The notes under the pieces: generated by a model
Told to the model about the DNA's origin: nothing
Seen by the model: the letters and a program-made list of their open reading frames with translations, nothing else
Database searches by the model: none
NCBI GenBank assembly: GCA_020137815.1
Contig: CM035350.1
Coordinates: 9,424,001-9,488,000, forward strand
Direction: 5' to 3'
Origin: Hormiphora californensis
Taxonomy: Eukaryota > Animalia > Ctenophora
DNA length: 64,000 nt
Part shown: in pieces, positions 748 to 63,400 of the stretch
Numbering within the stretch: the stretch's first letter is position 1
How the letters are laid out: every line of letters starts with the position of its first letter
Program-made: the position numbers and the translations under genes

Positions 748-3700
748 ATGGTTCTGTGCAGGGTAAACGATACTTTACCTGGTAAGTGTATATATTTCTC
801 TCTCTCTCTCTCTCTCTCTCTCTCACACACTTTCTCTCTCTCTCGCTCTCTCTCTCTCTCTCTCTCTCTCTCTCTCTCTCTATCTATCTCTCTCTCTCTC
901 TCTCTCACTTTCTCTCACTTTCTCTTGATTTCTTTCTTTTACTGTATTCTGGTTTATCTTACCACAAAAGTCCGAGAAATAGACAAAGAAATAAAAACTC
1001 TATAAGTACACGAGGGAGGTAGAAAGAGGGAGGGAAAAGAGAGCTAAATCGAGAAAACCAACCTGTGCCTAGAATATACACTAAACTGTCTGAAATGAGA
1101 TATACTAACTATCCAGTGTCTAGTTAGTATAATATTTAATTTTATTATTTATTTCCCCTTCCTACTGCATGCAAGCCTGGTCACATGCCTCTCTCGTCTC
1201 TAATTTTCTATCCATCCTTTCCCTCTAAATATCTGGGATATGTCTTGCTGACCTAGCAATTTCCATCCTGCTAGCTGCCCTGTGATCAGGGTTCGGCAGA
1301 GGAAAATAAATCCTCTTTCCTCTGATACAATTCCCTAATCAATCCTCTTTCCCCAGCCATAGTTTCTTAGTCAATCCTCTTTCCCCAGCCATAGTTTCTT
1401 AGTCAATCCTCTTTCCCCAGCCATAGTTTCTTAGTCAATCCTCTTTCCCCGAGCCATAGTTTCCTAATCAATCAACATCCCCCTTGCAGCAAGCCAGGTC
1501 ACGGTCTAATGGTGAAACCACATAAAGTTACAGTGCACGGAATTACAGCCAGCAAGCTGATCGACGTTGCTGACTATCCAGCCTAGTAGTCAGATGGACG
1601 TTAGATTGACAGAGATAAACAGAGATAGAAAGAGAAACAGAGAGACAGAGAAAGAGAGATAGACATAGAGGTAGAGTGTAGATATAGCGAGATAGACATA
1701 GAGATAGACAGAGAATTGAAAAGAGGGAGAGAGAGAGAGAGAGAGAGAGAGAGAGAGAGAGAGAGAGAGAGAGAGAGAGAGAGAGAGAGAGAGAGAGAGA
1801 GAGAGAGAGAGAACAGAAGGAACCAGGGATTAAACCCTGGGAATTGCATTCATTTATTTTAACTATCCCGTGATAATTTCAATTACATATTACTTTGTGA
1901 CTAGCTAATACTTTTCTTGCGTGTGTGTGTGTGTTATGTTTTCGGGTCACTGATAAATATTTTGGGTTGTTTTCTTCTTGCTTGACACGATCATGATAAC
2001 ATATTATTTCTGATTTCTTGGCATCCCAATATCCCATATATCCAGTCTCCATTGATCCTGCTGCTGTAACGCGCGGGCACTCTCCAGTGGGGGAGCCCGC
2101 GCGCAGACCCCCAGCTGCTCAATCGAGTGTTGGTGACCCCTCCCTCGTTGCTAGCGATCTCTGTTTCCAAACCCCACTTCACTTCTCCCTCTCTTCCGTT
2201 AATAGTTGATGGTACAATGGCAACAAAACGGGGTAGAGCCTGGCAGATGGTCGATATTACAGTTAAAATATTCACTGGACGGACCCTGTCCTTCCAGCAA
2301 CTACCCCTAAATACAACCATTGGAGAACTGAAGTTAAAGGTTGAGGACTCTTGTGGAATTCCCTCCCAATGTCAACGGATCACGTATCTAGATATGTGTG
2401 ATTTGTTTGACCATCGGACCTTGGAACAATGTGATGTTGTCAATAAAGCACGACTAGACATGCAGGTAGTGAGCTGGGGAGATTGATCGATCATTGTAAT
2501 AGGGTCTATGGAGTAAATACCACATGAACTTGCATTCATTAATCGGCTCTTTCCTACAGGTTTGGGCCCCGTTTATCAAGCTTGCCACTGCTGCCTCATC
2601 TGGTCTTATAGCCCAAACTTTCCAAGCGGGCATAATCAACAATCGAGGTTTCATTAGCCAGGTATGTTATTGCCCTGTTATGTGGCCTCACTCAGCAAGT
2701 GTGGGAAGTAATACTTCAAGTTGTGTAGAGTTCTGGTGTTTTTATTTATAGCAACTGTCAATAACGATACAGTCGGCCGGTCTTGTTTTGGTAAATTGAG
2801 GGATTGTATCCAACCGAATCTCGTGTTAGTGTCACCCTAGTATTTTATTGGGGACGTGACACGTATCTCTAGGGAATACCTTTTCCCGGTAAGAGATACA
2901 TCACGTGCGAGAGAACTGGGTAAAGTTCTGGTGTGTGTTGTTAGAATAACTTTCAATAAAGTTGATACAGTTGGCCGGTCTTGTGTTACCCTAGTAACCC
3001 AGTGTTTCTCCCAGGACGAAGCCTCGATAGCGCTCTACATAGCGTCTCACTGTGGTCACATTCGACTGGCCCTCATGTTACTGTCCTATGGGGTTGAGGT
3101 TAATTCAACTACCAAACTGGATAGGAGTGCCCTTCACGCAGCAGGTTGGTACAGACCCTGTCAGAGCATTGGCGGAGTGGGCGAGAACTGTGGTCAGAGC
3201 ATTGGCCTGACAGAACAGACAGTCGGTTTGGTTACTAACATACCCCCTTCTAGTTGAAGAGACAAGGTGGCTGGTTATTAACACACCCCCGTCTACTGAA
3301 AGAGATCTAGTTCTAGCCTAAATCCCCCGTCCAGGCATCAAAGGTCAGTGGTCCATACTGTGCCTACTAATTAACTGGGGAGCAAACATCTACAGTAAGG
3401 ATGTAACGGGTAACACTGCTATGGACTATGCCCGAGCATTTGGGCACCGGCAATCCGCCCGGGGCCTTGCGCTTTATGAGTGGCATCTTAACAAGGTTTG
3501 TTTGTTTGTTTGTTTGTTTGTTTGTTTGTTTGTTTGTTGTAGAATGCCCCCAGAACCCTCTATAATCACCTGCCCCGCTATCTGTACAGGAGCAGAGGGC
3601 GACCCAAAAGCACCCCCCCCCCCCTAAATACCCCACCCCTCTCTAAAACCCTCCCATTACAGGAGCAGAGGGCGACCCAAAAGCACCCCCCCCCCCCCTA

Positions 3701-60400: not shown

Positions 60401-63400
60401 CAGGTTATATTGACATATTTTGATGACGTAACAGAGAACTTTGTACTGGCCCGGTGTACCGCTTACATGTGTGTCACAAAGTTGGGAAGTCTCACCGAGA
60501 TCAATAACATTAGGAGTCCTTTTGAGTGGGGTAAGTGGGTTGAGAGAGAGAGAGAGAGAGAGAGAGAGAGAGAGAGAGAGAGAGTGTGCTACGTTTCCTT
60601 CCATTTACTCCTTGTTGTTTCCTACCATCCCCCCATTTTCAGACAGTGCAGTGAAGGATTGTCGTGTTCCAGAGCGATCTAACTGTCACTATCATGATAC
60701 CTTACTACTCATCTTCTCAACCCTTCTACAACGAATCACTCTGGAATGTCCCACTGCTCTCGTTTATCAACGCAGCTGGGTTAGTGTGACTCTCATTCCA
60801 TTCACGTGAAGGGAGTGACCCCTGTGGTTCAGAGTTTTATCAGGCATAGAACCAGAGGTTGCTTTCATTCGCAGTAGTGTTGTTTCAACTTGTATTGTGT
60901 ATCCTGTGCAAGTTCTGAGTTTTCCCATTACCAAATACCAATACATAACTTTGTCCTGAACCTCTCCCCGACCCTGCAGGTCTGCCCACTCCTTCCTCCC
61001 GGGGGTGCTATTGATTCTATCTCTAAGGAGAGCCCCCTCGACAAACTACCCTGCTACCCTGCCTCCCTACCCTTCCCTAAAGATCTCACTACGGAACAAA
61101 TCGAACAGGTAAATAGCGGTTTGAAATCTTATTAGATAATGTTAGTATCATGATGTTAGATTAACATGTCTCCCCGCCCCCAGATGAGATACGAGAATAT
61201 GTTAGTATCATGTTGTTAGACTAACATGTCTCCCCGCCCCCAGATGAGATACGAGATAAGCGAGAGTACTGAGGATGTGAGAGTGAGAAGTGTCATATCG
61301 GAGGAGAGGTGGTTGATGTGTGAGGACAACTCCCCTCCCTCTGCCCTGGCCATGTTAGCTGCACTCGATGAACACAACTTCTACATCTCACAGACAGGTT
61401 TGCAGGTTACACACATCCTGGTCACACAGGTTTAGGGGTTACACTTAGCACCTGAAATGTTAAAAATAATATTTTTGGGGCCATCCCGGACATCATTACT
61501 AATTTAATAAAGCGTAATAATCTCACTATCATACAGGAATCATCTCAACACACCACACATCAATCAACCTGTTACAGATCACAATAACAGGTTTAATTTG
61601 CTCGACCATTCCCACCGCGCCCTGGAGGGTTAAACATAACAGGGGTGGATCACATGAGTCCCTTCTCTCTCTCTCTCTCTCTCTCCTAAATTCTCCTCCA
61701 GATCGCACCCTTCTCTCCTATTTATAATCCTCTTCCCTCCAGATCGCATCCTTCTCTCCTATTTATACTCCTCTTCCCCCAGATCACAGTAGGGTAGGTA
61801 GTGTGGCGACTATCTACAAAAAGATATTCGGTCCAATCAACAAGCCACTCACCGAACAGCTCAGGGATGATGCCCCCATAGTATCTGGATTGTGTGAGTG
61901 GGCCGTCACCCATCGGAGGACCGGGTCACATAGGTGTCTGGTGGTTGCGGAGTTGTTGAAGAAGAGACAGGGGTCACTGTTAGAGACTCAGGATCAGCGA
62001 AAGAAAAAGGAATCTGACTCGATATTCCAGGAGATTCTCTTCAGATATTTGAATGAGAATGCCCCTACTTGGACAGGTTAGTACAGAGCTAGGCAGGGGT
62101 GTATTTTACACTTTACAGGCACCAGTTATTGTTTAGTTCTTTTCATTGACTATTGCAAACTGATCTCGGAGTATTGATAGTTCACCATAGATTAATACAA
62201 TTGTGTAATTCTGTTGTTATGTTCTAACCCTCCCTTTACATTTGTAAACACAGTCTAGCCAGGCAATAATTCTGCAACTAACCGAACTGTAACAGGGAAC
62301 GAAGAGGACAGGATCCAGTTCCACAACATGATGACGCTATTTGGAGAGTTAGTCCGATCAATGTTCAGTTACAACAAATACCTCAACAAGCTGATCTCCC
62401 TTGGCCACCTCTCCTCCCCCAAACTGGTTTACAGCCAGGAGACTATAACTACCCTGGGACCAGACCTCCAGACCCTCCCCAGACATCGGCAATACGTGCT
62501 GTGCCTGCCTGTCAATGATCTACAGAAGGTAGGGAACATGTTTACAACGAAGTGCCTACAATTAAAGAAAACAACGATGTGGCAGTACTTAAATTCAATT
62601 AGGAATCAAGAGCTTTCGGATGAACTATGTCAATCGTCTTCAGCTGTGACTACGGTTCTGGGTTCAAAAAAGATAAATCCTAGTTTATTCATCTAACTAA
62701 CTCCACCTCTCTTCCTGCTAGGATAAGAGTGCGAGAACACTGGTGTACGGGACAGGTCTGGGGAATATGGATAGCCACTTCATGTCAATTCAGAAAGAGT
62801 TGGCCAGTTTATACCAGAGTTTGGGGCCAGGGGCGGGTAACACAAACCCATATGCTACCCTCCAGCAATGTCGACCTGTAATTGAGGGTTTCAGGCAACT
62901 CCTACCAGTGCACAAATATACGGTATGCGACATAAAACAGAGGGTTAATTAATTTTTAAATGATCTTTGTCGGTGCTCGTATCGTGCACAATTGAAAGTG
63001 AAAAGACATCAAACCTGAGCTGCAATGTTTGCAGTTGCAAATTGTGTACCGCGCGCTGAACTCGTCACTATTAAAGTACCTGATTTCAGCACCACGCGCA
63101 CAACACTGCCCTTTTCTCGGCACCACGCGCACAACCCCCGCTCTCTTCTGATCACACAGGTCACAACCCCCTCTCTTTTGAGTCGCTTGACACTGTGTCC
63201 GTGCTCCGCATGAACAATTCAACCTCTCTTCAGATCACACAACGCCTCATGGAACCCATATTACCGGGTGCCCAAACCAAGCAGACCGGAATGGCTGTAC
63301 CGACTGTCCTACAGATGGAGCTGATGTACACCCTTATGGAGCTGTCAGGGGATGTCAGGTGAGAGAGAGACATCATAGCCGTTATAAATAAACATGAATC

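What the first reader, a model, noticed from the sequence alone, without database searches (positions are those of the whole stretch)
3585..61790. Window-wide bias: tandem duplications sit on exon-intron boundaries
Seen: besides the two large arrays, short duplications straddle splice sites at FAK 36889-36940 vs 37018-37071 (acceptor + IRLEFYETL), FAK about 48220-48258 vs 48277-48316 (acceptor + IDMTQ), MED12 about 57803-57828 vs 57932-57977 (exon end + donor), 60374-60420 (acceptor x2), 61138-61257 (acceptor x2) and 61690-61785 (acceptor-like x3). In each case the real exon keeps the innermost site and the extra copies are intronic. Inference: either a mutational process targeted to junctions (transcription- or splicing-coupled slippage or repair) or a survival filter that lets junction-spanning duplications grow introns without changing the protein. 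This is a plausible route to intron expansion and new alternative sites in this lineage.
Basis: partly seen in the sequence, partly recalled or inferred. Interest (0 to 1): 0.7.

Follow-up and report, generated by a model that had tools for sequence, protein, structure and literature searches.

The report
Comb-jelly splice-junction "mirage" repeats
In three comb-jelly genes, ten exon edges have been copied with their splice signals into the neighbouring introns, and some copies differ between DNA samples; this repeat type is already known from lancelets and humans, and here it likely reflects frequent small local duplications that splicing tolerates, not a mutation process aimed at junctions.

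Summary
The window is ctenophore DNA (FAK best hits Bolinopsis and Mnemiopsis). In six gene models (53 introns), 10 of 106 cis junctions carry copies: ANKUB1 1, FAK 3, MED12 6. That covers all six cases listed, both arrays and two missed ones. Reading frames stay open with the innermost sites; 17 of 18 non-array decoys would truncate the protein. Independent contigs carry three of the copies, lack some in other alleles, and show one new junction copy absent from the window, so the process is ongoing and not simply an assembly artefact. 'Window-wide bias' is overstated. 22 of 32 intron-touching duplications do not span a junction, and three genes have none (0 of 36 junctions). Enrichment is 2.6-2.9x (P 0.0006-0.002) under the main null, 1.7x with a visibility correction, and not significant without MED12 (P 0.12). 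This is the known amphioxus 'mirage' / human F7-IVS7 type of repeat, which this scan also found earlier in urchin, annelid and other genomes. My searches found no ctenophore report. Most likely cause: a high local duplication rate plus a survival and visibility filter. Junction-targeted mutation remains possible but is not shown.

The parts
3585..4260 (+). ANKUB1-like gene (Ub + ankyrin): array of 9 acceptor + 23-nt exon-head copies, unit 73-98 bp; real exon starts at 4237; 8 decoys; the one at 4147 is in frame (+30 aa)
   Evidence: homologue P0264 aligns without a gap across the inner site
36889..37072 (+). FAK acceptor copy (decoy 36912) 132 nt upstream of the real acceptor (exon starts at 37044)
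47888..47937 (+).
   Evidence: X1 contig 47763-48210 spans it with 1 other letter and 2 gaps; X7 contig splices at 47894
48197..48316 (+). FAK acceptor duplication, period 58 (decoy 48243, real 48301); copy number varies between alleles
   Evidence: present in X1 contigs, X6 joint skips 62 nt, another X6 joint goes back 53 nt; X7 joins 47894 to 48300
56863..57404 (+). Compound 19/73/92-bp array holding 6 copies of a putative (trans-splice) acceptor plus the MED12 start codon; not counted among the 10 cis junctions
   Evidence: the acceptor role is inferred, untested
57563..57646 (+). 22-nt copy of MED12 exon 2 sequence in the upstream intron (exon echo; junction not in the matched part; left out of the counts)
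57778..58052 (+). MED12 exon-2 end + donor (real donor after 57823) copied at 57926-57977 (50/52) and partly at 58021-58052
58506..59450 (+). 22 bp x43 array = last 18 nt of MED12 exon 3 + donor; real donor after 58523; 39 exact decoy donors, 2 copies have lost the GT; a stop lies in the first repeat
60370..60419 (+). Perfect 23-bp MED12 acceptor duplication (decoy 60381 scores higher than the real site 60404)
   Evidence: X1 and X5 contigs are shorter by amounts that fit its absence (inferred from gap counts); no shown contig carries it
61139..61256 (+). 60-bp MED12 acceptor duplication (decoy 61184, real 61244)
61691..61785 (+). 41-bp MED12 acceptor repeats (decoys 61702, 61743; real 61783)
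   Evidence: an X1 contig bridges 61693-62205, an X6 joint skips 43 nt
63141..63241 (+). Decayed 18-nt MED12 acceptor copy that has lost its AG (real exon starts at 63234); X6 has a separate 30-nt insertion at 63222 holding acceptor + 7 exon nt
   Evidence: table 4
2217..5159 (+). Host gene: ANKUB1-like, 7 exons, 408 aa
36012..49683 (+). Host gene: focal adhesion kinase, 17 exons
57382..63358 (+). Host gene: MED12, first 14 exons, 748 aa open frame

Best explanation
These are 'mirage'-type duplications of exon-intron junctions in ctenophore ANKUB1, FAK and MED12, some polymorphic between samples, which likely arise from frequent small local duplications and likely persist because splicing keeps using the site next to the full exon. 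Shown: about one local duplication per kb across the window, in introns and outside genes alike. Inferred: short (3-4 nt, up to about 6) terminal overlaps and non-adjacent copies point to slippage or microhomology-mediated repair. In genes with short introns (median 257 nt), a 20-80 nt duplication often covers a junction by chance. Shown: copies wholly inside exons are rare; inferred: selection removes them. Inferred: junction copies survive because the 5'-most donor (oriented scanning, as shown for human F7) and the exon-proximal acceptor (exon definition, with NMD removing errors) are chosen. Two seeds then grew into minisatellites by unequal exchange or slippage (inferred from near-identical inner units and different end units). 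One copy stays pinned by selection on the exon, so junction copies likely stay recognisable longer than purely intronic ones, which would produce part of the 2-3x excess.
For: 66 duplication events: 25 outside gene models, 37 touching introns, 3 exon-only, 1 at the MED12 5' end. 22 of 32 intron-touching non-transposon events do not span a junction. The excess falls to 1.7x (P 0.04) with 2x visibility, to 1.4x (P 0.13) with introns also capped at 400 nt, and is 2.0x (P 0.12) without MED12. Probe test: 8 of 106 junction 16-mers have a copy in the intron (7.5%) vs 169 of 3042 intron-interior probes (5.6%; both copies of an intronic pair count, so about 3% per ancestral site) and 1 of 212 exon-interior probes. 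Overlaps of 3-4 nt occur in junction and non-junction pairs alike. Frames are open and homologues colinear with the inner sites. Alleles with and without copies, plus many purely intronic indels. Amphioxus and human precedents splice normally (PMC3087553, PMC1557585, passages read).
Against: Under the main null the excess is significant: 10 of 26-32 vs 3.4-3.9 expected, P 0.0006-0.002; MED12 alone 6 of 8 vs 1.75, P 0.001. The 2x visibility factor is my assumption, and many copies are 94-100% identical, an age at which it should matter little. Non-spanning events also lean towards intron ends: 8 of 16 within 25 nt vs 4.1 (P 0.018), though a rank test gives P 0.07. Both big arrays are junctional. 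14 of 18 decoys score as well as or better than the real site, so tolerance of upstream acceptors is inferred, not shown; no RNA from these alleles was available.
Confidence: 0.68

Rival explanations
1. Junction-targeted mutagenesis: splicing- or transcription-coupled lesions (R-loops, polymerase pausing at splice sites, repair templated by pre-mRNA) would place duplications preferentially at exon edges of germline-expressed genes.
For: 2.6-2.9x excess under the main null; concentration in the housekeeping genes MED12 and FAK (MED12 6 of 26 junctions vs 4 of 80, Fisher P 0.013); the same MED12 acceptor copied twice independently (63141 relic and X6 insertion at 63222); weak lean of other duplications to intron ends.
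Against: Not significant without MED12; TRF test borderline (P 0.046-0.20); probe test 7.5% vs 5.6% raw; the window was picked because it shows the pattern; breakpoints show no shared anchor such as the branch point; same short overlaps as intergenic duplications.
Confidence: 0.2
2. The copies are selected or used as alternative splice sites (isoform ladder, unproductive splicing coupled to NMD).
For: Decoys keep intact signals, most scoring as well as the real site; ANKUB1 decoy 4147 would add 30 aa in frame.
Against: 17 of 18 non-array decoys and the donor array truncate the protein; copies decay (AG lost at 63141, GT lost in 2 array units); presence varies between alleles; homologues lack the insertions.
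Confidence: 0.05
3. Some copies are assembly artefacts of noisy long reads or merged haplotypes.
For: The window has a low-quality stretch (38.7-40.7 kb) and a 1-nt frameshift in FAK exon 1. The perfect 23-bp copy at 60370 is not seen in any shown contig; array copy numbers were not checked.
Against: Copies at 47888, 48197 and 61691 are in X1 contigs; most pairs differ by substitutions and indels; X6 shows a new junction copy that the window lacks.
Confidence: 0.07

Closest known systems
Amphioxus 'mirage' minisatellites (Adh3, globins BflGb6/BflGb9, PGBD5, troponin C); PMC3087553 and PMC3902484, passages read; original Adh3 paper PMC117041 not held, known only through those citations
   Same: Tandem copies spanning exon-intron boundaries at both donors and acceptors, units of tens of bp, copy number differing between haplotypes, end units less homogenised, normal splicing retained, already proposed as a route to intron gain.
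   Different: Here in a ctenophore (no report found in my searches); mostly two-copy, partly non-adjacent duplications; six junctions in one gene; one array at a putative trans-splice acceptor plus start codon; no RT-PCR on these alleles.
Human exon-intron VNTRs: F7 IVS7 (37 bp), 6-16, CBS IVS13, LMNB2, PDGF intron 4 (PMC1557585, passages read)
   Same: First unit spans the exon end and donor, many identical pseudo-donors follow, the most upstream is used; matches the MED12 22 bp x43 array.
   Different: Those cases are donors; 7 of the 10 cases here are acceptors, where the first-AG scanning model would predict use of the wrong copy.
Intron gain by tandem genomic duplication (Rogers model, cited in PMC3087553) and variable internal tandem repeats at exon-intron boundaries (PMC2812944, passages read)
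   Same: Local duplication that includes splice signals and changes gene structure.
   Different: No new intron or exon is seen here; existing introns only get longer.

Membership tests
Mirage repeats (exon-intron boundary duplications) | Repeat unit spans an exon-intron boundary and reiterates the splice signal in the intron | tested here: met
   10 junctions; one copy has since lost its AG
Mirage repeats (exon-intron boundary duplications) | Head-to-tail, minisatellite-like arrangement | tested here: met
   Met for 6 of 10 (3585, 48197, 58506, 60370, 61139, 61691); 4 are non-adjacent two- or three-copy relics
Mirage repeats (exon-intron boundary duplications) | Copy number differs between haplotypes | tested here: met
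   48197 and 61691 vary directly; 60370 by gap arithmetic; new copy in X6.
Mirage repeats (exon-intron boundary duplications) | Regular splicing is kept (authentic site used) | tested here: inconclusive
   Open frames and colinear homologues; the spliced X7 contigs use inner sites but are only 79-88% identical, so they may come from genes without the copies
Mirage repeats (exon-intron boundary duplications) | Concerted evolution of inner units, divergent end units | tested here: met
   36 of 43 donor units identical, last unit differs; ANKUB1 inner units alike, end units differ
Mirage repeats (exon-intron boundary duplications) | Somatic length instability (reported for Adh3) | not testable with these tools
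   Only contigs were available
Rogers-type intron gain by tandem duplication | A new intron between duplicated proto-splice sites inside a former exon | tested here: not met
   Every copy lies in an intron that also has unduplicated sequence and its own far end; no new exon found. Intron positions in relatives could not be compared.
Junction-targeted mutation process | Robust excess at junctions over a matched null | tested here: inconclusive
   Fold 1.2-4.2, P 0.00003-0.28 by null

The most novel reading that the evidence does not exclude
Ctenophore germ lines have splicing-coupled duplication hot spots: exon edges of housekeeping genes such as MED12 are copied again and again (6 of 26 junctions, one of them twice independently), and the ctenophore spliceosome, despite short introns, skips up to 8 equal or stronger upstream acceptors to pick the exon-proximal one.
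Probability: 0.17. Interest if true: 0.72.

Novelty: new member of a known kind. Interest (0 to 1): 0.3.

Why it matters
It extends a little-studied repeat type to a lineage near the base of animals and catches it as segregating variation. The acceptor cases are natural tests of 3' splice-site choice: the 23-bp allele at 60370 puts a stronger AG first, and using it would truncate MED12 at residue 292. In this window junction copies make up 8% of intron length (32% in MED12), comparable to microsatellites (6%) and one foldback element (6%), although two arrays supply about 80% of it. Such copies can also mislead gene prediction and read mapping. If junction targeting held genome-wide, it would link splicing to mutation, but that is not shown.

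Tried and rejected
No whole genome is held, so the genome-wide test could not be run. No RNA holder was listed for the MED12 stretch. X7 is labelled RNA by guess and is 79-88% identical, so it was used only for exon boundaries. The word-index search with a MED12 exon found nothing; the HMMER search did. An exon at 62263 was considered and rejected: that AG lies in a 53-bp insertion that X1 and X6 alleles lack, and the X7 contig end fits an acceptor at 62295-62296. Recursive splicing was rejected as a general escape: the leftover pieces are 23-60 nt, and several exon heads do not begin with GT. The clustering of non-spanning events near intron ends depends on the threshold (P 0.018 vs 0.07). 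Left out before counting: 4 events in the foldback element, the masked low-quality stretch, microsatellites, the exon echo at 57563 and the MED12 5' array; 6 low-complexity events were tested both ways; 61695 was counted as spanning by hand from the TRF extent. Papers PMC117041 and PMC2791625 are not held. Nine full-text searches were run; the four with ctenophore terms listed no report of such repeats in ctenophores. No supplements were opened; those of PMC8527503 might bear on this.
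Full report
Source and genes. The FAK kinase exon's best hits are Bolinopsis microptera and Mnemiopsis leidyi proteins (56% and 52% identity over the whole query; other animals cover about half of it), so the window is ctenophore DNA from neither of those species. No whole genome is held. I built six gene models by coordinates: the end of a CAP-Gly-like gene (motif recognised from recall), ANKUB1-like (7 exons, 408 aa), gene C (9 exons), minus-strand gene D (10 exons, 2060 aa), FAK (17 exons) and MED12 (first 14 exons, 748 aa). 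They give 53 introns, median 257 nt. FAK aligns with Mnemiopsis FAK at 65%, ANKUB1 with P0264 at 62%, MED12 with full-length homologues at 30-33% plus a Pfam Med12-LCEWAV hit. Genes C, D and the CAP-Gly piece rest on open frames and GT-AG ends only. FAK exon 1 has a one-base frameshift against both ctenophore proteins, likely an assembly error, so FAK was read from exon 2.

Observation. All six listed duplications and both arrays are present. An unbiased scan for local direct repeats (distance 9-700, score >=14, microsatellites and the low-quality stretch masked) gave 274 segments against about 1 in shuffles, clustering into 66 events: 25 outside gene models, 37 touching introns, 3 exon-only and 1 at the MED12 5' end. 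After removing 4 events in a foldback element and one exon echo, 10 of 32 span a cis junction: ANKUB1 1 of 12 junctions, FAK 3 of 32, MED12 6 of 26, the other three genes 0 of 36. Seven are acceptors, three donors. A further array at 56863-57404 repeats the MED12 start codon and a putative acceptor six times. SL trans-splicing is common in Hormiphora (PMC8527503, passages read), but this site is untested.

Which site is used. With the innermost sites all frames are open and homologues align without insertions at the three FAK and the ANKUB1 junctions and along MED12. 17 of 18 non-array decoys, and the donor array (stop in the first repeat), would truncate the protein; the exception is ANKUB1 4147, which adds 30 residues that the homologue lacks. 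With a matrix trained on the 53 real sites, 14 of 18 decoys score equal or higher, for example 11.2 vs 7.6 at 60381. 'Innermost' is therefore largely forced by geometry and reading frame. A spliced contig in X7 joins 47894 to 48300 with GT-AG ends, and another X7 contig end matches the join into exon 61783. X7 is only 79-88% identical and may lack the copies, so use of inner sites on these alleles is inferred.

Real and polymorphic. X1 contigs span the copies at 47888, 48197 and 61691. X6 has a joint skipping 62 nt at 48226-48289, one going back 53 nt there, and one skipping 43 nt at 61720-61764. At 60370 the X1 contig is 17 nt short with 29 gap letters, which fits +6 (seen separately in X5) and -23, and an X5 contig is 39 nt short. 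I read this as absence of the 23-bp copy; no shown contig carries it, so it is either a private young allele or an error. X6 carries a 30-nt insertion at 63222 that holds the MED12 acceptor and 7 exon bases and is absent from the window. X1 may be the window's source sample; even so its contigs come from different data than the window's assembly appears to. X5 and X6 are one sample. Purely intronic indels are frequent in the same tables, in line with the high non-coding indel heterozygosity reported for Hormiphora (PMC8527503).

Is there a bias? Placing each unit at random over introns and junctions gives 2.7 expected on raw introns, 3.4-3.9 on masked and collapsed introns (fold 2.6-2.9, P 0.0006-0.002), 4.4-5.0 with introns capped at 400 nt (P 0.005-0.015), and 5.2-6.0 capped at 250 (P 0.02-0.05). 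An assumed twofold visibility advantage for copies with one member held by selection gives 1.7x (P 0.04), 1.4x (P 0.13) and 1.2x (P 0.28). Without MED12: 4 of 18 vs 2.0 (P 0.12); MED12 alone: 6 of 8 vs 1.75 (P 0.001). The TRF test gives 4 of 17 (P 0.20), or 5 of 16 with the ANKUB1 array merged (P 0.046; 0.12 capped). The probe test gives 8 of 106 junction probes, 169 of 3042 intron probes and 1 of 212 exon-interior probes. The window was also selected for showing the pattern. So there is a modest excess, driven by one gene.

Mechanism. Shown: abundant local duplications everywhere, depletion in exons, allele variation, homogenised array interiors (36 of 43 identical units). Inferred: origin by slippage or microhomology-mediated repair (3-4 nt overlaps at 60370, 48197, 49897 and 60293 alike); growth of two seeds by minisatellite turnover; tolerance through upstream-first donor choice and exon-proximal acceptor choice. 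Junction copies account for 1,966 of 23,431 intron nt, against 1,467 for microsatellites and 1,491 for the foldback element.

Known relatives. Earlier findings of this scan pointed to the term 'mirage', which I checked in print. [quoted passage not shown] PMC1557585 lists human F7, 6-16, CBS, LMNB2 and PDGF and shows upstream-first donor choice experimentally. PMC2812944 covers variable repeats at human exon-intron boundaries. For all five papers used I saw search passages, not the whole text. The four searches with ctenophore terms listed no ctenophore report.

Verdict. Real, polymorphic, a new taxonomic member of a known kind, already met several times in this scan. Interest 0.3. The open points worth testing are whether young duplications are truly enriched at junctions and how upstream decoy acceptors are skipped.

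Noticed in passing
window 62214-62266; kin at about 60214-60278 and 44140-44185; a high-depth repeat also at 63178-63210: 53-bp insertion flanked by an 8-bp direct repeat, about 1000-fold contig depth, absent in X1 and X6 alleles; looks like a very short, recently active element inside introns, carrying branch-point-like and acceptor-like motifs.
   Followed up: partly
window 56863-57404: Array that repeats the MED12 start codon and a putative trans-splice acceptor six times.
   Followed up: partly
window 18380-23585, minus strand: Single exon of about 1735 aa made of short leucine-rich repeats, followed by 9 small exons with a coiled-coil tail (2060 aa); no convincing Pfam family.
   Followed up: partly
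window 14900-16390: Foldback-like element with long inverted arms built of 17- and 64-bp subrepeats, inside an intron of gene D.
   Followed up: no
window 38700-40665: Homopolymer-rich stretch that looks like unpolished long-read sequence inside a FAK intron.
   Followed up: no
window about 36085-36105: One-base frameshift in FAK exon 1 relative to Mnemiopsis and Bolinopsis; likely an assembly indel.
   Followed up: partly
window 51044-54469, minus strand: Cysteine-rich ectodomain plus 7TM receptor gene (weak 7tm_1 hit) broken into five frames; errors, introns or pseudogene not resolved.
   Followed up: partly
window 29973-34600, minus strand: Several intronless ORFs (260-402 aa), two coiled-coil ones that look like retroelement ORF1 (from recall), with a roughly 240-bp inverted repeat near 31570-31760 and 32000-32240.
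   Followed up: no
window 1309-1473, 18049-18154, 18324-18379, 36440-36511, 47186-47230: Intronic duplications that stop just short of a junction and repeat branch-point, pyrimidine-tract or donor-proximal sequence only.
   Followed up: partly
run X7 on window 47765-48653 and 61289-62400: A run under the same species label as X1 is only 79-88% identical in coding exons, suggesting a cryptic or mislabelled relative.
   Followed up: no
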